From IMG/VR virus record IMGVR_UViG_3300021478_000018: a stretch of 57,818 nucleotides of DNA; one strand, written 5' to 3'. The translations under genes were made by a program, and so were the position numbers. This DNA comes from an uncultured virus (IMG/VR IMGVR_UViG_3300021478_000018). Lineage: Duplodnaviria; Heunggongvirae; Uroviricota; Caudoviricetes. The notes below the pieces were generated by a model. That model searched no databases and was not told where the DNA came from. It saw nothing but the letters and a program-made list of their open reading frames with translations. Below, one piece after another: positions 1,581 through 57,818 of the stretch. The number at the start of each line of letters is the position of its first letter. Position 1 is the first letter of the stretch.

Positions 1581-3083
1581 ATGGCGATTCCCGGTTCAAC
1601 GGTCAACGTCGGTAGACTCGTAACCCCGAGCGGAGCCCAGGGTCCCCAAGGGGTCATCGGCTCGACCGGCGGGACCGGCCCGACCGGGCCGACCGGAGCG
1701 ACCGGACCGCCTTCCGTTACGACGACGACGAGCGTCTTTACCGTTCCTCCGATCGGGGCGACGACGACGGTTAACGTCGCGAATCCGAGTTGGATCGTCA
1801 TCGGGGAACTGCTTTACGTATCGACGGCGGGCGGAACGACTTCGGCGGGCGCTTTACAGGTTACGGCGATTAACGGGAATACGATTACCCTCCTTAATCC
1901 GAATCCTCCTTCGGTTATCCCCCCGGCGGATTCTACCCAGGCGGGCCTCCTTAATCAGGTCTCCGGGAATACGACGGACTTCGTCGACGGAACTAACCAT
2001 AGTCAGGCGTTATCTCCGGTTATTTGGTACGCTCGGCAACGGAGTTTCAACGCCATCGGTAACCCCAACTTCGAGATCGACCAGAGGAACGTCGGAACGG
2101 GGATAGTTAATATTGCTGCCAGTGCTTTTGCAATCGATCGTTGGCAAATAGCTAAAGTCGGGACCCATACCGTTAATACGCAGCAGGAAGCGGGATCGGT
2201 ATTTGGCTATAATTTTTGCTACGGTCAGAACCGGCTTTTATTACAATTAATTACGACGGAGGCCTCGCTAGGCGCGGGCGATTATATACAGCTCGTTCAG
2301 ACGATTGAGGGGCCGGTCTGGCGGGAAATTTCTAACTATCCTTTTTCGATCTCGCTCTACGTCTATAGCGACGTCGCCTTAAAATTCGCTCTAGCGATAC
2401 GCGGCGGAAGTCTTTCCCTAGTTAAACTTTGTACGGTTCCCGCCGCGACCTGGACCTTAGTTACCTTACCTAATATTCCGGCTCCGACGACGGCGTTCCC
2501 GCTTACTCCCGGAACGTCGGCGAGTTCGATTTCTATTACCTTATCTTGCGGAACAACTTATATAGCTCCGACGGCGGATACTTGGGTCTCCGGAAATTAT
2601 ATCGGGGCTCCGGGGATGGATAACTGGTCGAGTAAGGCGACCGGTAGCGGGTTCCGGATCGGCTTCGTCCAATTAGAACCGGGCCCGCTCTGCTCGATCC
2701 CGATCGATAAGCCGTTCACGGCGAATTATGACGAATGTCTCCGCTACTTCCAGAAATCGTACGCTTATAGCGCTCGGCCCGGTGCGACTGGAATAGGTGG
2801 AGGGATGGTAGGAGGGTTTCCATTGGTTTCCGGTTGGAATATGGGTACCGTTCGATTTGTAAAACCGATGGCAAAAGCTCCAACGGTAACTTATTATAAT
2901 CCGCAAAACGGGGCCGCGAACGGAATATACGGCTGGCCTTCCGCTACTAATTATTCAGTGGGACAACAAACTCCTTGGGGGGTCTCAACGACCGGATGGG
3001 AAGGTTGGAATATTGGAGCCAGTCCCGCCTATGTCGCGGGGGATGTAACCTTTCTTCATTATACCGCCGATACCGGCTGGTAA
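1581..3083 (+). CDS. Tail fibre / receptor-binding paralogue 1
   Basis: Gly-X-Y collagen stretch, NPNFEIDQR..DRW beta-sandwich-like domain, ECLRYFQKSY, C-terminal ADTGW. Confidence 0.8.
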   Translation: MAIPGSTVNVGRLVTPSGAQGPQGVIGSTGGTGPTGPTGATGPPSVTTTTSVFTVPPIGATTTVNVANPSWIVIGELLYVSTAGGTTSAGALQVTAINGNTITLLNPNPPSVIPPADSTQAGLLNQVSGNTTDFVDGTNHSQALSPVIWYARQRSFNAIGNPNFEIDQRNVGTGIVNIAASAFAIDRWQIAKVGTHTVNTQQEAGSVFGYNFCYGQNRLLLQLITTEASLGAGDYIQLVQTIEGPVWREISNYPFSISLYVYSDVALKFALAIRGGSLSLVKLCTVPAATWTLVTLPNIPAPTTAFPLTPGTSASSISITLSCGTTYIAPTADTWVSGNYIGAPGMDNWSSKATGSGFRIGFVQLEPGPLCSIPIDKPFTANYDECLRYFQKSYAYSARPGATGIGGGMVGGFPLVSGWNMGTVRFVKPMAKAPTVTYYNPQNGAANGIYGWPSATNYSVGQQTPWGVSTTGWEGWNIGASPAYVAGDVTFLHYTADTGW

Positions 3084-3092
3084 AACTTTTTT

Positions 3093-4523
3093 ATGGCAGT
3101 AGCCCCAGGTACAGCGGTTCCGGGAACGATCGTCGCGGTCGGGGCGACCGCTACGACCGGCGGAGCCCAGGGAGTCCAGGGCATAAAAGGGGCGGACGGG
3201 ACGAGCGTCGCGATTAAAGGGACCGTCCCGACCTATACGAACCTTCCGGCGAGCGGGAATACCTACGGCGATTTATGGATAACGGCGGATACCGGACACG
3301 GGTGGGTATGGTCCGCGCCCGGGACCTGGGTCGACGTCGGCCCCCTCCAGGGTCCGGTCGGCCCCGCCGGTCCCGTAGGTCCGGTAGGCGCGACCGGCCC
3401 GACCGGATCGGTAGGGCCGCCCGGTAGTACCGGTCCGCAAGGCTCCTCCGCCTTTACGACGGTCTCTAGTTTTACCGTCCCTAACGTCGGATCGACGGTG
3501 CAGGTTACCTTTACCGACGCGAGCTGGATAGCGGTCGGGGAGATGATTTATATTGCGACGGCGGGCGGGGCGACCTTAGCGGGCGCTCTCCAGGTAACCG
3601 GGAAGACGGGGAACCTCGTTACTCTTCTTAATCCGGCGACGATCTCGGCGATCCCTCCGGCGAGTACGACGGCGTCCGGTCTCCTTAATTCGGTTTCCGG
3701 TACTCCGACCGATTACGTCGGAGGAGATAACGCTACCCATCCGCTCCCGATGCAGCCTTTTCACTGCGGACGGTTAGTCGTTCCGGGAACTTCTCCTTCT
3801 ACTACCGTCCAGTTCGTCCCTTATAAGGGGGACCTTATTAAGATTAACGGGGTCCTTTATAATATTCCGGCGGCTGGAGTTAGCGCGACGGGGACTAACC
3901 TTTATTTAGAGGGGGTAGCGGGTAGTTCGTTAGTTGGGAGCACGGTTTATGCCGTTTATATTTTTAATAACGCCGGGACTTTAACCTTAGATTTTTCGGC
4001 GACGACGACTCACGTTACCTCCTCTACGCCGGGTAACGTCGGGGTCGAGATTAAGACCGGCGACGATACCCGGAGTTTTATCGGGCTCGTCTATACCGCC
4101 TCGTCGGCTCCCTTCTTTAACGACCAGATTCAGTATCGGTACACCCGATCCTGGTTTAACCGGGTGGGCTGCGCCTATAGTTTTTACGGGGCGGTTAATA
4201 TTGGTGCTAACGCTAATAAAGCCGCTTTTATCGTAGTCTTATTTAAGGGGGAATCGCTCGTCTCGGTAGGAACCTGGTACGGGACCGGGAGCGTCGCCGA
4301 TAATCTATTTCTCCGGATGTACGACGGAATTAGCGGCTCTTTTGCGGGTACCGGGGTTACGACGTTTAATACGACTTCGGCCTACGTAGGTATGTCGGTT
4401 ACGGCGAGCGGAACCGCGACTACCGATTGCGCGGTAACCGCTACTTATAACGCTTATTCACAAAGCGGAAACGCGGTCGGGACCGGTACCGGATCTATGA
4501 TTTCTACGGTTATCCTCGCTTAA
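3093..4523 (+). CDS. Tail fibre / receptor-binding protein with a distinct C-terminal domain
   Basis: AVPGT N-terminus, collagen repeats and SWIAVGEMIY..LLNP domain shared with neighbours; C-terminal half unrelated. Confidence 0.8.
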   Translation: MAVAPGTAVPGTIVAVGATATTGGAQGVQGIKGADGTSVAIKGTVPTYTNLPASGNTYGDLWITADTGHGWVWSAPGTWVDVGPLQGPVGPAGPVGPVGATGPTGSVGPPGSTGPQGSSAFTTVSSFTVPNVGSTVQVTFTDASWIAVGEMIYIATAGGATLAGALQVTGKTGNLVTLLNPATISAIPPASTTASGLLNSVSGTPTDYVGGDNATHPLPMQPFHCGRLVVPGTSPSTTVQFVPYKGDLIKINGVLYNIPAAGVSATGTNLYLEGVAGSSLVGSTVYAVYIFNNAGTLTLDFSATTTHVTSSTPGNVGVEIKTGDDTRSFIGLVYTASSAPFFNDQIQYRYTRSWFNRVGCAYSFYGAVNIGANANKAAFIVVLFKGESLVSVGTWYGTGSVADNLFLRMYDGISGSFAGTGVTTFNTTSAYVGMSVTASGTATTDCAVTATYNAYSQSGNAVGTGTGSMISTVILA

Positions 4524-4533
4524 AAGAAAATTT

Positions 4534-6048
4534 ATGGCAAACGCTCCAGGTCAAGCGGTTCCCGGTACGGTTGTCGTCGGCGGCTCGCTCGCTTCCCCAG
4601 GCGGCCCTCAAGGCACTACCGGCTCGATCGGTCCGATCGGGAATACCGGGCCGGTCGGCCCTCCCGGCCCCGCCGCCGCGACGACGACGGTTAGTAGCTT
4701 AACCGTTCCGAATACCGGAGCGACGACGACGGTTACGGTCGGCGACGCGAGCTGGGTAACGGTCGGGCAGATGATCTATATAGCGAACGCCGGGGGTAGC
4801 TCCTTAGCCGGGGCGCTCCAGGTAACGGCGAAGAACGGTAATATCCTTACCCTCCTTAACCCGGGAACCGTCTCGGCGATTCCCCCGGCGGATAATACCC
4901 AATCCGGGCTCCTTAACCAGGTTTCGGGGAATACCACCGACTTTGTCGACGGAACGAACCATTGCCAACCGTTAGCGCCGGTTATTTGGAGCGTACGGTC
5001 GCGCTCTTATAGCTCGATCGGGAACCCCAATTTCGAGGTCAACCAGAGGGTCTGGGCGATCGGGGCCCCCGTTCTTCCGGCGGTTAGCGGGGCTTTTTTA
5101 GTCGATCGCTGGTCGGTAGTCCGGAGCGCCGGGATCTCCGCTACTTTTACGATCGGACCGAGTAGCGGGACGATCGTCGCTCCCGGGAGTAAGTTTATGC
5201 TTGGGGGTCAGGTCCTCGTTATTCAGCTAGCTACCCAGCAAACGACTCTCGCCGCTAGCGATTATTTCCAAGTTCTACAATTCGTCGAAGGGTCGGCTTT
5301 CCGGGAGTTGCAACAAGACGTCCATTCGATCTCTCTTTTAGTTAATACTAATGCCGCGCTTAACTTTAGCGTTGCCATAAGAGACGCCGGACTTTCCCAA
5401 AGTCTAGTTATCCCGGTGAGCGTTCCGAGCGGGGTTAGTTTAATCGCGCTTCCGAACTTACCGGTCTGGCCTTCGGCGTTTTCTAATATTACCTCCGGCG
5501 CGGTCGGTTATTCTTTAGCTATTTGCCTAGCGGCGGGGAGCACCTTTACCGCTCCCGCGACCGGCTCCTGGACGAGCGGAAATTTCCTCGGCGCTCCCGG
5601 TATGGATAATTTCCTCGCCAAGCCGGTCGGAACGAATATCGCGCTCGCTTTCGTCCAGCACGAATCTGGACCGCAATGTACTTCGCTTATCGATAAGCCG
5701 TTCGCGTCGAATCTGAATGAATGCCTCCGCTATTACGCTAAGAGTTACGCTTACGTGACGGCGGCGGGGACGGGAGTCGCCGCCGGGGAGGCTTGGTTTA
5801 ATGCTAGTGGTACTACTACCTTTGCTTTCGGCTACGCGCCTTTTCCTTTGCCTATGGCAAAGAGCCCGACCGTTACGGCCTACAATTCTCAGACCGGCGC
5901 GATTAACGGCGCGCAGTCTTTTCCTAACGGAACTAATGTAACCGGGATTACCGTTTCGAATAATGAGAGATCGATCGGCTATATCTCCGGGACTTTAGTC
6001 TCCGGACAGATGTATCGCTTCCATTTTACCGCCGATACCGGCTGGTAG
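4534..6048 (+). CDS. Tail fibre / receptor-binding paralogue 2
   Basis: Same architecture as 1581..3083; ends ADTGW. Confidence 0.8.
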   Translation: MANAPGQAVPGTVVVGGSLASPGGPQGTTGSIGPIGNTGPVGPPGPAAATTTVSSLTVPNTGATTTVTVGDASWVTVGQMIYIANAGGSSLAGALQVTAKNGNILTLLNPGTVSAIPPADNTQSGLLNQVSGNTTDFVDGTNHCQPLAPVIWSVRSRSYSSIGNPNFEVNQRVWAIGAPVLPAVSGAFLVDRWSVVRSAGISATFTIGPSSGTIVAPGSKFMLGGQVLVIQLATQQTTLAASDYFQVLQFVEGSAFRELQQDVHSISLLVNTNAALNFSVAIRDAGLSQSLVIPVSVPSGVSLIALPNLPVWPSAFSNITSGAVGYSLAICLAAGSTFTAPATGSWTSGNFLGAPGMDNFLAKPVGTNIALAFVQHESGPQCTSLIDKPFASNLNECLRYYAKSYAYVTAAGTGVAAGEAWFNASGTTTFAFGYAPFPLPMAKSPTVTAYNSQTGAINGAQSFPNGTNVTGITVSNNERSIGYISGTLVSGQMYRFHFTADTGW

Positions 6049-43441: not shown

Positions 43442-44720
43442 AGACGCCGAAACTAACCGCTGGGTCGCTCGGGCGCTCAAACGGTGCGGATGGATCGAGC
43501 CGACGGATTCGCTTATTAAGGAGGCGCTCGGCTTTTTAAAGAAAAACGGGACCGCCCTAACGAAATATAAGACGATCTACGGCGGGCTCGAAAAATTTAA
43601 TCCCGAAGCGCCGCCGCTCGTCCCGTCGCCCGACCGGAAATACGTCGACCTTTTAATCCTCGCCTCGGCGTGCGGTCTGGCGATCCCGGTTAATCTCGGA
43701 GCCGAGCCGGTCGAGAATAAGATCCGCGAGGTCGAGCTTATCCTCCGGAAGGCGGCGAAGAAATTTAAGCTTCCCTCGGACGCCTACGCCCGGGACGTCG
43801 CGCTCCGTTACGATATCGTCTTCGAAGGGAAGATCCTCGATTGCTTCGGGTACTGGGAACCGGATAATAAGTTATGCATGGGCTGTACGGACCAGGAGCG
43901 TTGCTACGCCGTCGTTAAGAACGCCGGGATGGAGGCGCTCGTTAACCCGGCGATTAAAGAGTTCGGGGTTCCCGAGCCGCTCCGGGAAAGCGCCCCGTTA
44001 AGGGTCTGCCGGATCGAGAGGAGTACGAACGAAGGAGCCCTCGCGGCGGCGAACGACCGGAAGTCGCTTATAATCTGGATCGGGTCGGAGTTCCCGGCCT
44101 TAGCCCGGTTCGATTATACCGAGAGCGTTAACTTCCAGATTACCCACCCCTACCGGAAGCGGCTCGTCCTTTTAAAGGTCGAGAAATTTTCGCCGAAAGC
44201 GTACCTCGTCGTCTTTAACGTAATCTCCGACGAACAGGCCGCTGAGTTCGGCTTTACGAAGATCCGGAATAACTGGACCCATACCGCGCCCGACGTTTTA
44301 AAGCTCCAGGACGAGATCCGGAAATATCTCGTCGTGGCGATGGATATTCCGGCGATCTCGGTCGTCCTCTCGAAGGAAGAGGAGATTAAGCAGCAGATCC
44401 AGCGCTACCTAACCGAGAATTGGACCGGGATTTTAGAGCATCGTGCCGATCACGACGTCTTTATCGACTCCCGTCGGCAGAAGATCCTCCGTTTCTCCCG
44501 GCTTTCGACGAAAGGGTTCCGGCTCGATTTTTCGCGATGGGGACGGGAGAAGGCGAACGAGTTCGGCCTTCGCTATACGTCGAGCGGGGCCCGCTACGAG
44601 GGCTCGGACCGGACGGAACTCGAACGTCTTCTCCGGATCTACCTACACTCGATTCGATCGGATTATTTCGGACCCCGGAACGGCTACGTCCCGGGAAGCT
44701 CTTTTCTCGCGACGAATTGA
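43434..44720 (+). CDS. Hypothetical protein
   Basis: 428 aa; CFG..CxxC..C cluster; overlaps the preceding stop. Confidence 0.6.
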   Translation: MDKDAETNRWVARALKRCGWIEPTDSLIKEALGFLKKNGTALTKYKTIYGGLEKFNPEAPPLVPSPDRKYVDLLILASACGLAIPVNLGAEPVENKIREVELILRKAAKKFKLPSDAYARDVALRYDIVFEGKILDCFGYWEPDNKLCMGCTDQERCYAVVKNAGMEALVNPAIKEFGVPEPLRESAPLRVCRIERSTNEGALAAANDRKSLIIWIGSEFPALARFDYTESVNFQITHPYRKRLVLLKVEKFSPKAYLVVFNVISDEQAAEFGFTKIRNNWTHTAPDVLKLQDEIRKYLVVAMDIPAISVVLSKEEEIKQQIQRYLTENWTGILEHRADHDVFIDSRRQKILRFSRLSTKGFRLDFSRWGREKANEFGLRYTSSGARYEGSDRTELERLLRIYLHSIRSDYFGPRNGYVPGSSFLATN

Positions 44721-44728
44721 TCCTCGGG

Positions 44729-45514
44729 ATGATACCGATCTACATCCCGTCGAAGGGCGACCCGGATAATAAAACGAGTCGCCTCTTTAAAGGCCGCCGG
44801 GATTATACCGTCTTCGTCGAGCCTTCGGAATTAGACCTTTACCGCGAGGCGAACGCCGACGTCGTCTCGATCGAGGAAAATAATCTCGGGAACGGGTACG
44901 TTATGCGCTATATCCAGCGGTACGCCGACCGGAACGAGGTCGCGATAAGCTGGATCCTCGACGACGACTTCCGGGAGTTCTACCGGTTACCGGTGGACCC
45001 GGGCGCGAGGCCGGAAGCGGGCGGGGCGGCGATCCTCGCGGAGGCGGAGGAAGCCGTCTTAACGGAGGACTTCCTTAATTTAACCCCGCCGGTCGCGGCG
45101 GCCCACTTCGAATTTATGGAGCCCCGGACGCGGAACCCGCGTCCCTTTACCTTCCATAAGGTCCCGGTTATGGGCTTACTCGTAATCTGGGACCGGGTCC
45201 GGGCGGCGGGAGCGGAATACGACGCCGACCCGGCGACCCATTGGGACGTCGACTTCGCTTTCCAGCTTTTCCGGGCCGGGTTTACGACCGCCCAGTTTAA
45301 CCGCTTCGCTCAGAAGGTCGCTCCGAGCCTTAGTAACTACACTCACCCCGATTATCTCCGGCGGTGCGAGCGGATGATTGGACGGTGGGGGGATTGGGTT
45401 AAGATCGTTCCGAACCCGAAGATTTATTCGGGGACCGACCGGGTTCCGGTCGAGAAGCGGGTCCAGTTACAGCGGAACCATCGGGCTTGGAAAAAATACC
45501 TCGGCGTCGTATGA
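44729..45514 (+). CDS. GT-A fold glycosyltransferase (resembles DNA-modification-associated GTs)
   Basis: Start MIPIYIPSKG; WILDDD (DxD) and WDVDF motifs. Confidence 0.65.
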   Translation: MIPIYIPSKGDPDNKTSRLFKGRRDYTVFVEPSELDLYREANADVVSIEENNLGNGYVMRYIQRYADRNEVAISWILDDDFREFYRLPVDPGARPEAGGAAILAEAEEAVLTEDFLNLTPPVAAAHFEFMEPRTRNPRPFTFHKVPVMGLLVIWDRVRAAGAEYDADPATHWDVDFAFQLFRAGFTTAQFNRFAQKVAPSLSNYTHPDYLRRCERMIGRWGDWVKIVPNPKIYSGTDRVPVEKRVQLQRNHRAWKKYLGVV

Positions 45515-52060: not shown

Positions 52061-53242
52061 ATGAAAGTCATTACTTTTAGTCGGAAGGTTACCGTCATTA
52101 CGAAGTGCGGTAAACACCAGGCCGAGGTCCCCTGTAACCCGGGGGAACGGTTAATCTTCGATAATGATAACGCCCTTAGTATCCAGCAGGATCCCGGCTC
52201 CGCCCGCTACATCTTCGAGGTAACCGATCTAGAGCCGCTAATTAAGGAGATGCCCCGACCGGCCCGGTGGGCGAAAAGGCGGGTCCTTTTTTACCGGAAT
52301 CGGGGGATCGGCGATCAACTCATTATTTCCTCCGCCTCCCGCTTCTTCGCCGAGATCCTCGGGGCGGAATGCTTCCAGCTTTCCGACCGGATCCACGAGG
52401 CCCTATGGGCGTTTAACCCGTTTATCGGCGGGGCGGCGCTCCACATGCCGATGCATCTCGATACCGTCTGGCGGTCGAACGGGAAACCTTTCTTCCCGGG
52501 AGCCTTCTTTTTCGAGTCGCTTACCGAATGGGATTCCGACGGCGAGCAGCCCAACGTCTACGACCGGGTCTATGGAATGCTCGGATTCGAGCCGGACCGG
52601 ATCCCGGCGAAATTTAAACGTCCGGTTATCGCCCTTCAGAAGCAGGACATAGATAAAAGGAACCAATGGTTAAAGCAGGTCGGCAGCGCGGTTAATAAGC
52701 CGACCGATAACGGCTACATCTTTTTCCAGCCCCGCTCGACGAATAAAGGCCGGAGCTTACCGAATTTCCTAATCGAGAAGGTTCTCTATTCGGTTAACGA
52801 GTTCGCGGAGAAGCTGCAGATACCGATCCTGGTCGCCGACGATAACCCGCTCGACCCGGAGGTTAACGCCATGGTGCAGCGTACTCCGAGAGCGATTAAC
52901 GTCGCGACGGCGCTTAATAACGTCCGGCTTTTCGTCTCGGTTATCGGGGCGGCGAACGTCGTCGTCGGGCCGGACTCCTCTGCGCTCCATATCGCCGCCG
53001 CGTTCGAAACTCCGGCGGTTGGACTCTGGGGGCCGTTCGAACCGAAGAGCCGGACGCAGTACTACCCGAGGCAGGTCCACTTACATCACCCCAACCTTTG
53101 CCCCGAAGCGCCCTGCTTTAACTATCTCCCGGAACTCCCGGCGATGAAGTGCCCGAACGGGGCGGCGCAACGGCATTGCGAGTGCTACGAAGGGATCGAG
53201 ACGGAGGAGATTTTCGAAGCGCTAAAAGCGGTTACGAGTTAG
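52061..53242 (+). CDS. Glycosyltransferase family 9 (heptosyltransferase-like)
   Basis: RGIGDQL; VVGPDSSALHIAAAFETPAVGLWGP; C-terminal Cys cluster. Confidence 0.85.
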   Translation: MKVITFSRKVTVITKCGKHQAEVPCNPGERLIFDNDNALSIQQDPGSARYIFEVTDLEPLIKEMPRPARWAKRRVLFYRNRGIGDQLIISSASRFFAEILGAECFQLSDRIHEALWAFNPFIGGAALHMPMHLDTVWRSNGKPFFPGAFFFESLTEWDSDGEQPNVYDRVYGMLGFEPDRIPAKFKRPVIALQKQDIDKRNQWLKQVGSAVNKPTDNGYIFFQPRSTNKGRSLPNFLIEKVLYSVNEFAEKLQIPILVADDNPLDPEVNAMVQRTPRAINVATALNNVRLFVSVIGAANVVVGPDSSALHIAAAFETPAVGLWGPFEPKSRTQYYPRQVHLHHPNLCPEAPCFNYLPELPAMKCPNGAAQRHCECYEGIETEEIFEALKAVTS

Positions 53243-54223: not shown

Positions 54224-55435
54224 ATGTCCCTTTTAATCACCGACGCCGTCCAGGGCCTAGCCGACGCTACGTACATCCAACTCCCGACGGGGATCGTCGA
54301 TCCGGCTTGCCTCCAGGTCGTTACGATTAACGGCGCTCTTCGGATAACGATTAAAAAGAACTCGCTCGACGGGTCCTATTTTACCGGGGACTTTATCCCG
54401 AACGGGTCGATTACTAGTTCGCAGCTGGCGAATAACTGCGTCGGGACGGGTCAGCTCCAGGACGGCGCGGTAACGACGTCGAAGCTCGCCGACCATAGCG
54501 TTACCCAGATTAAGCTCGCTTTCGGGGCGGTAACCAATACCGAGATCGCCGCCGGAACGATCCATTCCAGTAATATCGCCCCGAATGCGATCGTAACGAA
54601 CCTTATTAATCCCGGCTCGGTAACCGGCCCCTGTATCGCCAGCGCGGCGATTACCTCGGTTAACTTCTCGCCCGGCGCGGTTAATAATTCCGCGCTTCAG
54701 TCGGCGTGCGTCGCGATCCCGAACCTCGGCTCGGACGTCCTTTCGCTAATTCAGGGAACGGGCCTTCCGTCGGGGATTATCCTACCGACGGCCCGGATCT
54801 CGCCGCCGACCGGTTACCTCTTCTGCGATGGGGCGCAAATTTCCCGGTCGGTTTACGCTACGCTCTACGCGGCGCTCGGCGGGGCGAACTCCCCTTGGGG
54901 TCAGGGCGACGGGAGCACCACTTTCCAAGTTCCCGATCTTCGCGGGCGGAATATCGTCGGGGCCGGAGCCGGTCCCGGCTTAACGAACCGGGCGCTCGGG
55001 AGTACCGGCGGAGCCGAATACCACTACATCTCGACGAACGAGATGCCCGCCCATAGCCATCCGGTCGTCGATAACGGGCACTCCCACGCCGTTAACGAGC
55101 CCTTCCACTCCCACTCGATCTCCCAGACCCCCCACGCCCACGGGGTTACCGACCCCGGGCATACGCATACTTACGTCGGGGTCTATCCGCAGCTTAATAC
55201 CGCGCCGAACGTCGGGAACTCCTATACGACGCCGGTAACCCCCCTTACGACGACGTCTTCGACGACTGGGATTAGTATCCAAGCGGCGAACGCTAACGTC
55301 TCGATCGTCCAGACCAAGATCGGGATTACGATCGCGGGCGCGAGTACCTCGATCTACAATACCAATACCGGAGGCGGAGCGCCGATAAGCTTAATGGCGC
55401 CGTTCGCCTCCTGTAACTACATAATTAAGACGTAA
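54224..55435 (+). CDS. Tail fibre with collar domain and HxH needle
   Basis: 10-residue xxAVTxxKL repeats, collar YLFCDG..GDGSTTFQVPDLRGR, DPGHTH repeats, ends YIIKT. Confidence 0.85.
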   Translation: MSLLITDAVQGLADATYIQLPTGIVDPACLQVVTINGALRITIKKNSLDGSYFTGDFIPNGSITSSQLANNCVGTGQLQDGAVTTSKLADHSVTQIKLAFGAVTNTEIAAGTIHSSNIAPNAIVTNLINPGSVTGPCIASAAITSVNFSPGAVNNSALQSACVAIPNLGSDVLSLIQGTGLPSGIILPTARISPPTGYLFCDGAQISRSVYATLYAALGGANSPWGQGDGSTTFQVPDLRGRNIVGAGAGPGLTNRALGSTGGAEYHYISTNEMPAHSHPVVDNGHSHAVNEPFHSHSISQTPHAHGVTDPGHTHTYVGVYPQLNTAPNVGNSYTTPVTPLTTTSSTTGISIQAANANVSIVQTKIGITIAGASTSIYNTNTGGGAPISLMAPFASCNYIIKT

Positions 55436-55538
55436 GAACTTGGTGAAGATCCTCTGAAGGTAGAGGGATTTAGATTTTCTTCCGGGAGCGTCGCGTATAT
55501 CTCGATTAACCTAAATCAACGCTCATTTTAAATAGTCT

Positions 55539-55949
55539 ATGGCCTCTTCCACTTATGGCATCTATGCAGTAAAAGGCGTCTCGACGCCGTTCGTAACCTA
55601 CCGGACCGATTTCCGAGTCGGTCGGATCGACTTCCAGATTCGCAACTACGGCGATAGTCCGGTTAAGGTGCAAATCCGCGAATCCGAAGTAAACGGGACG
55701 TCTTCGAGCGTCGTTGTAAACGATACCCTTATTAGCGTCGGCGGCGGCGTCGTCGATCTTCCGATAAACGTCGCGAAGGGGCAGGTCCAGCTCCTTTCCG
55801 GCTCCGGGAATCTCGCCGCGTCGAGCGTCCACGTTCAGGCGACCTTTTTTGGGCTCTCCTTCTATGGCGGCTCGATCGCCGATATGGAAAGTTTGAATCG
55901 GTCCGGCTGGACTGCTGGGACAGATTTGCCCACGGGGGTTAGAGATTAG
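55539..55949 (+). CDS. Hypothetical beta-rich protein (possibly structural)
   Basis: 136-aa ORF followed by a terminator. Confidence 0.5.
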   Translation: MASSTYGIYAVKGVSTPFVTYRTDFRVGRIDFQIRNYGDSPVKVQIRESEVNGTSSSVVVNDTLISVGGGVVDLPINVAKGQVQLLSGSGNLAASSVHVQATFFGLSFYGGSIADMESLNRSGWTAGTDLPTGVRD

Positions 55950-55970
55950 CACTGACCATTATTTCTCTCG

Positions 55971-56004
55971 AAAGCCCCGGCGCTCGTATAGGCCGGGGCT
56001 TTTT
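55971..56004 (+). terminator. Intrinsic terminator
   Basis: AAAGCCCCGGC..GCCGGGGCTTTTT. Confidence 0.8.
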
Positions 56005-56029
56005 ATTTCCCGAAATGTAGGGAGGACTT

Positions 56030-56224
56030 ATGAGAAAAATAATCCTCTCCTTCTTCACCGTCTTTACCCTTCTCGGTAACCTACAGGCCGGTACCTGCTA
56101 TGGGGACGCCGATTGCACCGCCTGTACGACTTGCAACTATTGTAAGCATTGCAACGAAGGCGGCGGTACCTGCGGCGTAAAGAACGGAACCTCCGCCGGA
56201 CGCGGTTCTCGCCGGGGCCATTAA
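56030..56224 (+). CDS. Small secreted Cys-rich protein
   Basis: Signal-peptide-like N-terminus, then CYGDADCTACTTCNYCKHCNEGGGTCG; CGAAATGTA and GGAGG upstream. Confidence 0.65.
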   Translation: MRKIILSFFTVFTLLGNLQAGTCYGDADCTACTTCNYCKHCNEGGGTCGVKNGTSAGRGSRRGH

Positions 56225-56289
56225 TGTTTTAAGTTCGAAATGTAGGGCTAGATCGGGATATCCCCGTTCTAGACTAACGAATAATTACA

Positions 56290-56967
56290 ATGCCAACGAC
56301 AGAAGAAATAGAAGTAACGGAAACGGAAGCGGTAGAGCCTAAACCTCTTGTTCAATTAGCCGTCCGGTTAGAGAGTACCCGTCCTCTAATAATGCACCGG
56401 GGAAACCTAGCGGATTCTTTCGACCCTTGGGCTCGGAGGATTAAAGAAATTTCCTCGAAAAGGAAGAAGACCGACGAGGACGCCGCTGAACTACAAAAGC
56501 GGGAATTTCTCGGTTCAATGTATTACGATCCCGAAATTGGGATCTATATCCCGTCGGAAAATGTTCGAGCTTGTATCGTCGAAGGAGCGCGAGTCTCGAA
56601 GCTCGGAGTGCAAGCGGAGACCGGGATCGAGGTAATCGCCTACGGTAAAAACGAGGCCGCTATTCCTTTCGAATATGAAGGTCCGAAAGACCCGGAAAAA
56701 TTATGGAACTCGCGGAAAAAGGACGGTAGTTCCGATTTCATCTTTACCCGGGGCGTCCGCGTCTCCCAAGCTCGTATTATGCGGACTCGGCCTCGGTTTA
56801 GTAAGTGGGCGGTCGATTTTATCTTAGAAATCGATACCGAACTTCTTAACCCGGATCAGGCGATTCAAGCCATGGTTCACGCCGGTTCGCGTAAAGGACT
56901 CGGGGATTGGCGTCCCCGTTACGGACGTTTTACCGTTACTAAAGCCGATCTTATAAAAGAAATTTAA
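56290..56967 (+). CDS. Cas7/RAMP-like protein (candidate guide-RNA-binding effector)
   Basis: N-terminal strand VRLESTRPLIMH, YIPSENVRACI helix, RTRPRF..W, C-terminal Gly-rich loop AGSRKGLGDWRPRYGRFTV; next to the GGY-NN array. Confidence 0.7.
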   Translation: MPTTEEIEVTETEAVEPKPLVQLAVRLESTRPLIMHRGNLADSFDPWARRIKEISSKRKKTDEDAAELQKREFLGSMYYDPEIGIYIPSENVRACIVEGARVSKLGVQAETGIEVIAYGKNEAAIPFEYEGPKDPEKLWNSRKKDGSSDFIFTRGVRVSQARIMRTRPRFSKWAVDFILEIDTELLNPDQAIQAMVHAGSRKGLGDWRPRYGRFTVTKADLIKEI

Positions 56968-56971
56968 ACTT

Positions 56972-57460
56972 ATGGGTATTACAACTCCTCCGGAAGATGG
57001 GCGGGCCTATCCTTTAGGCCCGCAAGCAATCGTCGACGATTTAGAAAAAGAAGGACTACTTCGGTACGGAGTACAGATTCCGACCGACTTTTTCGAAAAG
57101 CGTCTTTTAAAGAATCGCAACGACAATTTTTTCTCTATCGCGATTAGCGCGGTCCGCGACCTCCTTATCCCTAGAGGCCTTTATCTCAACGGATACGGCG
57201 GTAAAGGAGATCTCTATCAGATAGACGATCCTAAGCGGAACGCGCATCATGCGCGATCTAGAGCGCGGAATGCTCGTAAGGAGATCTGGCGGTCGTCGAC
57301 CTTAGCGGCCCAGACCGACCGGAGCGGGCTAACCGAGGCGCAAATCGCCGAACTCGATCAGGTTCATCGCCGGGCGTCGACGATCGGTATGCTAATGGAT
57401 AAGTCGAGAACGATCGAAAAACTAGTTCGTAAGTATCAGCCCAAACTACTCGGGCGATAA
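56972..57460 (+). CDS. Accessory protein between the RAMP-like gene and the array
   Basis: 162 aa, starts 4 nt after the RAMP-like stop; its stop is 7 nt before the first pentamer. Confidence 0.7.
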   Translation: MGITTPPEDGRAYPLGPQAIVDDLEKEGLLRYGVQIPTDFFEKRLLKNRNDNFFSIAISAVRDLLIPRGLYLNGYGGKGDLYQIDDPKRNAHHARSRARNARKEIWRSSTLAAQTDRSGLTEAQIAELDQVHRRASTIGMLMDKSRTIEKLVRKYQPKLLGR

Positions 57461-57467
57461 TTTTCGA

Positions 57468-57818
57468 GGCGGGGCCAGGCGGAGCATGGTCCGGCGGGGC
57501 TAGGCGGGGCGGTGGCATGGTACGGCGGGGTATGGTGAGGCGAGGCAAGGCTTGGATCCCGTTCTTTCGGAAGAGGGGACGGGTTCGGGGCTTGGCCGGG
57601 TGCGGCTGGGTTGGGCTCGGTACGGTTGGGCATGGCTGGGCGTGGTACGGCGAGGCTTGGATCCCGCTTCTTCTAACGAGGAAGCGGGCTCTGGGCAAGG
57701 TGGGGCGAGGCCCGGCGCGGCTTGGTCTGGCTGGGCTAGGCTGGGTAAGGCGTGGCTTGGTGTGGCGGGGCACGGCGGGGCACGGCGGGGCGTGGATCCC
57801 GAATCTTCGAAAGAGGGT
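57468..57818 (+). ncRNA. GGY-NN pentamer array with periodic hairpins (candidate guide-RNA array, truncated by window end)
   Basis: Tracts of 17, 14 and 20 GG(C/T)NN units, each followed by a GGATCCCG..CGGG stem-loop with G-U pairs and 4-nt loops (GGAA, TAAC, GAAA). Confidence 0.75.

What the first reader, a model, noticed from the sequence alone, without database searches (positions are those of the whole stretch)
57554..57818. Array-punctuating hairpins show RNA-type covariation and a conserved 1x1 pyrimidine mismatch
Seen: GA-T-CCCGTTCTTTC-GGAA-GAGGGGACGGG-T-TC (57555-57586), GA-T-CCCGCTTCTTC-TAAC-GAGGAAGCGGG-C-TC (57660-57691) and a third copy starting GATCCCGAATCTTC-GAAA-GAGGGT, cut by the window. 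Stem sequences differ but pairing is kept in the two complete copies, using G-U wobbles that work only on the + strand. Inference: these are processing or capping handles that define guide boundaries and fix the transcribed strand.
Basis: partly seen in the sequence, partly recalled or inferred. Interest (0 to 1): 0.75.

Follow-up and report, generated by a model that had tools for sequence, protein, structure and literature searches.

The report
RNase III-type hairpins punctuate VIPR guides
These hairpins separate the guide RNAs of a phage VIPR system (a recently described CRISPR-like gene silencer). They are built like cutting sites of the bacterial enzyme RNase III, which suggests how such guide arrays are cut into single guides, though this phage's copies break one of the enzyme's known rules.

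Summary
The hairpins are real (z -4.8 and -6.6). They punctuate the GGY/NN guide array of a phage VIPR locus: vipr matches SUSP1 Vipr at E 9e-36, and guide 2 matches a gene of three other phages under the 1-nt-skip code (26, 25, 25 of 28). Covariation between two copies is not significant (123 of 500 shuffles), but the family is informative. Of 79 hairpin-bearing segments between guides, 47 carry U-A then U·G near the apex, against 239 of 4520 control hairpins. All 63 such hairpins outside this window have A-U/U-A six pairs lower. This is the RNase III distal/proximal-box signature (PMC1540722). It also flanks the SUSP1 guides. My searches found no paper linking VIPR to RNase III. Predicted cuts (57585/6, 57690/1) start each next guide at a YNNGG unit, and the 1x1 mismatch lies at the cut site. 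Against: this window alone has C-G at proximal-box position 2, which inhibits the E. coli and Aquifex enzymes. No RNA data. Verdict: known system, probably an unreported processing route, with an odd local variant.

The parts
56290..56967 (+). vipr gene, 225 aa RAMP-family guide-binding protein
   Evidence: phmmer to SUSP1 Vipr, PDB 36PP, E 9.1e-36 over residues 23-216; PHROG 4652 E 1.6e-52; C-terminal glycine-rich loop aligned
56972..57460 (+). vap-like accessory gene, 162 aa, possibly winged-helix N-domain plus helical C-domain
   Evidence: 106 family representatives; a family member hits 20 of 100 vipr loci; weak profile match to the gene after SUSP1 vipr (probability 25%, E 0.00076); fold match inconclusive (Z 6.3 to PurR N-domain)
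57468..57553 (+). guide tract 1: 17 GGY/NN units, one AGC variant (57483) and a 1-nt register slip (57513)
   Evidence: sequence; 34 matches of a 4-unit pattern in the window, all in the array, 0 in shuffles
57550..57591 (+). hairpin 1: distal-box pairs U57567-A57574 and U57566·G57575; proximal-box positions 57558-57561/57580-57583 (G-C, C-G, C-G, C-G); U×U mismatch 57557/57584; predicted cuts 57557/8 and 57585/6
   Evidence: fold; register; cut positions inferred from PMC1540722 geometry
57589..57658 (+). guide tract 2: 14 GGY/NN units with natural targets in three other phages
   Evidence: 1-nt-skip matches 26, 25 and 25 of 28, skipped base at the codon wobble position
57655..57696 (+). hairpin 2: distal-box pairs U57672-A57679 and U57671·G57680; proximal-box positions 57663-57666/57685-57688; U×C mismatch 57662/57689; predicted cuts 57662/3 and 57690/1
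   Evidence: fold; register
57694..57793 (+). guide tract 3: 20 GGY/NN units; no target found
57794..57818 (+). hairpin 3, cut by the window end: same 5' arm register, distal-box pairs U57807-A57814 and U57806·G57815, six pairs visible
   Evidence: sequence; fold of the fragment not significant

Best explanation
The hairpins are RNase III-type processing sites that cut the precursor of a phage VIPR guide array into single guide RNAs. Shown: the locus is a VIPR system; each hairpin is an 11-bp helix under a tetraloop with U-A and U·G at pairs 2 and 3 (distal box) and G-C at pair 8; related arrays share this design. Inferred: an RNase III (host's, or one encoded elsewhere in the phage) binds the helix and cuts the 3' arm after 57585 and 57690, so that each next guide starts with a whole YNNGG unit. 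The pyrimidine mismatch at pair 12 borders the 5'-arm bond. If it blocks that second cut, the hairpin stays as the 3' cap of the guide before it, standing in for the SUSP1 pseudoknot (guide 2 = 57586-57690, 105 nt; somewhat more likely). If both arms are cut, a 28-nt hairpin is excised and the guide is nearly tail-less (57586-57662, 77 nt). Vipr then coats the tract, one protomer per repeat, and silences DNA by the 1-nt-skip code (published mechanism, not tested here). Guide 2 points at a probable virion gene of smaller soil phages. The C-G pairs at proximal-box positions 2-4 imply slow cutting or an enzyme with another preference.
For: RNase III rules: distal box U-A then U·G, proximal box G-C then A-U/U-A, 11-bp helix, 28-nt product (PMC1540722); the distal box sits one pair below the loop (PMC8708148); mismatches at target sites can limit cutting to one strand and leave a protective 3' hairpin (PMC3867540). 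Family test on the window plus 100 vipr loci: 47 of 79 hairpin-bearing inter-tract segments (of 103 unique) carry the box, against 239 of 4520 control hairpins; strict definition 43 of 69 against 68 of 1594. Pair 9 is A-U/U-A in 63 of 63 non-window box hairpins against 91 of 239 controls; outside the AT-rich SUSP1 clade 30 of 30, against 8, 2, 7, 1 and 1 of 30 at pairs 4-8. Held-out phage phiHSIC: 3 of 3. SUSP1 clade: predicted 3' cut in repeat phase in 27 of 27 segments; 26 of 33 upstream remainders are 42-43 nt, matching the published ~40-nt tail. In SUSP1 itself (L024) a box hairpin precedes all four guides. In the window the cut-to-repeat distance is 3 in 2 of 2, the commonest SUSP1 value. 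Pairs 1-3 are kept in all three copies while pairs 4-7 vary. A C×C mismatch at pair 12 recurs in 4 of 4 box hairpins of another short-tail lineage (L219, L014), against 3 of 59 in lineages with a separate tail.
Against: The window is the only one of 7 lineages with C-G at proximal-box position 2 (0 of 2 A-U/U-A; copy 3 has the same 5' base). This change cuts E. coli RNase III reactivity to 0.06, and C-G at position 4 costs 7-fold; both cost about 10-fold with the Aquifex enzyme. The box occurs in only 6 of 17 lineages with a long inter-tract hairpin, and 27 of the 47 hits are one clade. A review states that the distal box is not conserved in sequence across substrates or species. The mismatch/short-tail link rests on one or two independent lineages; a single origin is not excluded. 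The loose definition also hit 22 of 40 reverse-complement segments, all one clade; the 4 hits shown were a different, weaker stem. No RNase III domain among 36 window proteins scanned or the 9, but the window is about 58 kb of a contig of up to 254,649 nt.
Confidence: 0.62

Rival explanations
1. The hairpins descend from RNase III sites but are no longer cut by it. They act as passive 3' caps or insulators between Vipr filaments; ends are made by another endonuclease plus exonuclease trimming up to the hairpin, or the array works as one long RNA.
For: C-G at proximal-box positions 2, 3 and 4 in both complete copies, inhibitory for both enzymes tested in print. Published vrRNAs end in a structured tail that caps the filament. 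No other tail exists here: 4 nt would remain after a 5'-arm cut.
Against: The box pairs and the exact 11-bp length are kept in all copies while pairs 4-7 drift. The 3-nt phase equals that of the SUSP1 clade. Mapped E. coli sites often depart from the consensus (PMC5371410).
Confidence: 0.22
2. Vipr or the Vap protein cuts at the hairpin, as Cas6 does with CRISPR repeats.
For: Vipr is a RAMP related to Cas5/6/7; the invariant base of the stem could be a protein-specific handle.
Against: The conserved family signature matches RNase III boxes. Vap shows no nuclease family or fold. The paper describes Vipr as lacking the second RRM and I saw no cleavage activity reported in its text.
Confidence: 0.08
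3. The hairpins are intrinsic terminators or pause sites that end separate transcripts.
For: Strong GC-rich stems; one related lineage (L003) does end its tracts in hairpin plus U-run.
Against: No U-run follows; the terminator scan lists none of the three and no promoter-like site in 55400-57818; the next tract begins 3 nt after the predicted cut, leaving no room for a promoter.
Confidence: 0.05
4. The hairpins are DNA-level palindromes or by-products of array duplication without an RNA role.
For: The three copies share ancestry; two-copy covariation is not significant.
Against: G·U pairs at fixed positions, strand asymmetry of folding, and the family-wide pattern.
Confidence: 0.03

Closest known systems
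VIPR system of Escherichia phage SUSP1 and the P. fulva prophage, type II (bioRxiv 10.64898/2026.04.26.720920, .720927; 10.64898/2026.10.15.759431)
   Same: vipr-vap operon followed by GGY/NN tracts, each followed by a structured segment; 1-nt-skip target with the skip at the wobble base, in another phage. SUSP1 carries the same box hairpin next to its guides.
   Different: No pseudoknot or separate tail: the whole 35-nt spacer is the box hairpin. Tracts of 17 and 20 units exceed the published 9-16. Vipr is about 35% identical. The papers describe hammerhead-interspersed and staggered arrays but, in the text I could search, no RNase III step.
RNase III substrates of the T7 R1.1 type (PMC1540722; PMC3867540; PMC8708148)
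   Same: 11-bp helix under a tetraloop; U-A/U·G distal box at pairs 2-3; G-C at proximal-box position 1; an irregularity at the cut site; 28-nt product if both arms are cut.
   Different: C-G at proximal-box positions 2, 3 and 4 instead of A-U/U-A; a 1x1 mismatch instead of a larger internal loop; it would release guide RNAs, not mRNAs.
CRISPR repeat handles cut by Cas6, and type II crRNA maturation by RNase III with tracrRNA (recalled, not from a call)
   Same: A structured element punctuates an array and would set guide ends.
   Different: The stem is variable in its middle, the duplex is intramolecular, and no Cas6, tracrRNA or cas gene was seen.

Membership tests
VIPR system | Vipr (RAMP) gene | tested here: met
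   E 9.1e-36 to SUSP1 Vipr, PDB 36PP; glycine-rich loop conserved; thumb not modelled
VIPR system | adjacent tandem GGY/NN tracts | tested here: met
   17, 14 and 20 units
VIPR system | accessory vap gene next to vipr | tested here: met
   162-aa gene 4 nt after vipr; family hits in 20 of 100 vipr loci; match to the SUSP1 gene weak
VIPR system | targets read by the 1-nt-skip rule at 80% or more | tested here: met
   guide 2: 26, 25, 25 of 28; other skip rules at most 19 of 28 in the same phages; none found for tract 3; tract 1 searched only locally
VIPR system | vrRNA expression, binding to Vipr, silencing | not testable with these tools
   needs RNA-seq and biochemistry
VIPR type II (SUSP1-like) | about 40-nt pseudoknot tail after the tract | tested here: not met
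   35-nt spacer is a single hairpin
VIPR type II (SUSP1-like) | Vipr phylogeny and Vap1-type accessory | tested here: inconclusive
   window Vipr falls in no supported clade; the paper's reference sets were not available
Canonical E. coli RNase III site | helix of at least 11 bp between cut and loop | tested here: met
   11 bp in both complete copies
Canonical E. coli RNase III site | distal box U-A, U·G | tested here: met
   3 of 3 copies
Canonical E. coli RNase III site | proximal box position 1 G-C | tested here: met
   2 of 2
Canonical E. coli RNase III site | proximal box positions 2-4 A-U or U-A | tested here: not met
   C-G at all three in 2 of 2; so filed as 'built like', not as a canonical site
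Canonical E. coli RNase III site | cleavage at the predicted bonds | not testable with these tools
   needs end mapping or in vitro cleavage
Intrinsic terminator | hairpin followed by a U-run | tested here: not met
Hammerhead-interspersed VIPR array or other Rfam RNA | match to an Rfam model | tested here: not met
   0 matches at E up to 1 in 55400-57818

The most novel reading that the evidence does not exclude
RNase III is the maturation enzyme of a large part of VIPR arrays, SUSP1 included. In this jumbo phage the site has been reduced to a single hairpin that is both cut signal and 3' cap, nicked on one arm because of the pyrimidine mismatch. Its conserved C-G proximal box is read by an RNase III (host or phage-encoded) whose preference is the reverse of the E. 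coli, Aquifex and B. subtilis pattern. The first clause alone I put near 0.75; the probability given is for the whole statement.
Probability: 0.17. Interest if true: 0.78.

Novelty: new variant of a known kind. Interest (0 to 1): 0.58.

Why it matters
How VIPR arrays are cut into single guides is not explained in the text of the three VIPR preprints I could search. The RNase III signature gives exact predicted ends for the model phage SUSP1 (products of 105, 121 and 116 nt) and a one-experiment test in an rnc mutant. If right, VIPR function depends on a host enzyme, which bears on host range, on counter-defence, and on building multiplexed guide arrays. The window adds a minimal design (a 35-nt spacer) and a conserved departure from the proximal-box rule. 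It also gives a natural target outside the enterobacterial and Pseudomonas clades: a jumbo soil phage aiming at a gene of smaller phages.

Tried and rejected
No whole genome is held, so the rest of the array and any phage RNase III gene could not be seen. Close relatives exist as proteins (Vipr 86%, Vap 78% and 72%) but their DNA was not reached: Vap-alignment scans of metagenome and viral contigs found nothing. A full hairpin pattern gave 0 in viral contigs and 0 of 241 loci. So no covariance model of true orthologues could be built. Sequencing runs: no RNA holder listed; hairpins 1 and 2 were not covered by identical contigs. Rfam: no match. No target for tract 3 in one exact scan of 10 of its 20 units, none for tracts 1 and 3 in the three target phages, no self-target in the window (guide 2 best 18 of 28, guide 3 22 of 40). 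A first motif-blind register choice undercounted the box (27 of 79) because it picked other registers in the SUSP1 clade; it was replaced by an all-registers count with controls. The Vap fold search was inconclusive. A weak hairpin over the vap stop codon as the source of the first guide's 5' end is not significant (z -1.3). PMC6212792 held only a stub.

Full report
Observation. The two complete copies fold on the + strand as an 11-bp stem with a tetraloop, a 1x1 pyrimidine mismatch and a lower stem that runs into the flanking repeats (-26.5 and -29.4 kcal/mol, z -4.8 and -6.6, 0 of 200 shuffles each; minus strand -9.4 and -18.3). Between them 13 of 17 pairs are invariant, 2 change on both sides and 2 on one side, with none broken. 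That much is reached by 123 of 500 shuffles, so two copies do not prove covariation. In the fold of the whole array the upper stems are firm (0.97-1.0), but the mismatch register of copy 1 has probability about 0.36.

The locus is a VIPR system. The window holds phage tail, thymidylate synthase and nuclease genes, and its proteins are on record on a contig of up to 254,649 nt. ORF 56290-56967 matches SUSP1 Vipr (PDB 36PP, E 9.1e-36). A 162-aa gene follows; members of its family hit 20 of 100 other vipr loci and its profile weakly matches the gene after SUSP1 vipr. Then come GGY/NN tracts of 17, 14 and 20 units, separated by two 35-nt spacers that are the hairpins. The discovery preprint (10.64898/2026.04.26.720920; whole text read, figures not seen) describes this architecture, 9-16 repeats, a structured 3' tail of about 40 nt that is a pseudoknot in SUSP1, and the 1-nt-skip code.

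The code can be read here. An exact scan with 10 of the 14 units of guide 2 found 3 viral loci. Over all 14 units they match at 26, 25 and 25 of 28 positions, with 6, 5 and 5 of the 8 positions outside the pattern, and the skipped base is the third codon position of one homologous gene. Other skip rules reach at most 19 of 28 in the same phages, and 2.16 Mb of other loci at most 19. The gene (503 and 516 aa in L212 and L211; no clear family) lies in a run of large ORFs in a 37-kb phage with portal, major head and primase genes; a virion role is my inference. The three hits are homologues, not independent. No target was found for tracts 1 and 3.

What the hairpins are. I collected 80 viral and 20 genomic vipr loci. 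Numbering pairs from the loop, many spacers share U-A at pair 2 and U·G at pair 3. Among 103 unique inter-tract segments, 79 hold a long hairpin and 47 of these carry the step, against 239 of 4520 hairpins in control tiles of the same loci; with a stricter definition 43 of 69 against 68 of 1594. PMC1540722 (Results, part of Discussion and legends) defines the E. coli RNase III site as an 11-bp helix with a U-A/U·G distal box and a proximal box of G-C, then A-U or U-A. Its numbering (6-nt leader, 28-nt product, position 2 = nt 9:30) puts proximal-box position 2 at pair 9, and PMC8708148 (passages) puts the distal box one pair below the loop. This gave a second, independent test. Pair 9 is A-U/U-A in 63 of 63 box hairpins outside the window (45 inter-tract, 18 terminal), against 91 of 239 controls; outside the AT-rich SUSP1 clade it is 30 of 30, against 8, 2, 7, 1 and 1 of 30 at pairs 4-8. 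Phage phiHSIC, not in the set, gives 3 of 3. Pair 8 has G on the 5' arm in 44 of 63.

The predicted cuts fit known guide anatomy. In the SUSP1 clade the 3'-arm cut is in repeat phase in 27 of 27 segments, and 26 of 33 upstream remainders are 42-43 nt, which is the published tail plus the last GG. L024 is SUSP1: a box hairpin precedes each of its four guides and follows three, predicting products of 105, 121 and 116 nt against the published 'about 100'. I could not compare exact ends. In the window the same geometry gives cuts at 57557/8 and 57585/6, and 57662/3 and 57690/1; the next guide would start at a YNNGG unit in 2 of 2.

The mismatch. It is pair 12, between the two predicted cuts and next to the 5'-arm bond. 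PMC3867540 (passages) states that mismatches at target sites can allow only one strand to be cut, leaving a stabilising 3' hairpin; PMC3074117 (abstract and one section) found that a mismatch beside the site inhibited cleavage of a minimal substrate. Here a double cut would leave only 4 nt of tail, so a one-arm cut would supply the missing cap. Another short-tail lineage has C×C at pair 12 in 4 of 4 box hairpins (L219, L014), against 3 of 59 in lineages with their own tail. The tree does not exclude one origin for the short-tail type and places the window's Vipr in no supported clade, so this link is suggestive only.

Against. The window is the only one of 7 lineages with C-G at pair 9, and it has C-G at pairs 10 and 11 too. 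In print these cost 16-fold and 7-fold with E. coli RNase III and about 10-fold each with the Aquifex enzyme; B. subtilis prefers similar pairs to E. coli (PMC11780869, passages). Mapped E. coli sites often depart from the consensus (PMC5371410, passages). The box is present in 6 of 17 lineages with long inter-tract hairpins, and 27 of 47 hits are one clade, so it is not universal. Reverse-complement segments gave 22 hits of 40 in one clade; the 4 shown were a different, weaker stem. There are no RNA data. I therefore call the hairpins 'built like' RNase III sites, not canonical sites.

Novelty. The system is a new member of a published kind. The RNase III reading I did not find in print: library searches for VIPR or vrRNA with RNase III gave 3 unrelated papers and 0 papers; searches on VIPR terms listed four relevant preprints. 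Term searches found no RNase mention in the discovery text or its supplement PDF, only RNase A in 10.64898/2026.10.15.759431 (passages, abstract, one methods section), and no hairpin or RNA-processing passage among those shown for 10.64898/2026.04.26.720927 (RNase was not a search term there). 10.64898/2026.10.21.760802 (passages) deals with repeat motifs. Figures of all, and supplements of the bioRxiv-only preprints, were not seen and may show the hairpin; subscription journals are not searched. Earlier scan notes call similar hairpins 3' caps; they are leads, not support.

Verdict. Real feature of a genuine VIPR array, most likely an RNase III-type processing hairpin (0.62), with a passive cap as the main rival (0.22). 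The testable gain is family-wide and can be checked in SUSP1 at once. Interest 0.58.

Noticed in passing
L024 (SUSP1) 3818-3845, 3950-3978, 5083-5110, 5231-5258, 5374-5401: The model VIPR phage has an RNase III-box hairpin before each of its four guides and after three; the published pseudoknot tail ends near the predicted 5'-arm cut.
   Followed up: yes
L238 about 1650-1700, 2990-3030, 3115-3155; L240 about 3000-3180; L002; L076: Actinophage-type VIPR arrays are punctuated by tRNA-like stems with a T-loop-like motif, possibly RNase P/Z signals (read by eye); a search for vrRNA with tRNA-like found 0 papers.
   Followed up: partly
L241 (phage phiHSIC) 2395-2640: Array with non-GGY repeats and three box hairpins with A-U/U-A at pair 9.
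   Followed up: partly
L210-L212, L233-L237: Guide 2 targets a Gln/Ala/Gly-rich gene of about 510 aa without a clear family, found in three phage records (5, 37 and 40 kb), probably a virion protein.
   Followed up: partly
window 57513 and 57483: Tract 1 has a 1-nt insertion that shifts the register after 9 units, and one AGC unit; it may be two fused guides or a decayed one.
   Followed up: no
window 57426-57468: Weak irregular hairpin over the vap stop codon with a U×U mismatch near the first repeat (z -1.3); might set the first guide's 5' end.
   Followed up: partly
window 56247-56275: Hairpin just before the vipr start (z -2.8).
   Followed up: no
window 56012, 56237, 46325, 42146 (+); 29919, 25666 (-): A 9-nt motif GAAATGTAG recurs six times, at 56012 and 56237 just upstream of genes; possible phage promoter element (no chance estimate).
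   Followed up: no
window 57638-57695, run X1: A less than 90% alike contig covers the hairpin 2 region with different GGY/NN-like flanks, hinting at another array unit or strain (its hairpin letters were not shown).
   Followed up: no
window 44537-45514 and 52061-53242: TET-associated glycosyltransferase and a GT9 glycosyltransferase near a thymidylate synthase; possible DNA modification pathway.
   Followed up: no
L003: A VIPR lineage whose guides end in hairpin plus U-run, i.e. apparently separate transcripts.
   Followed up: no
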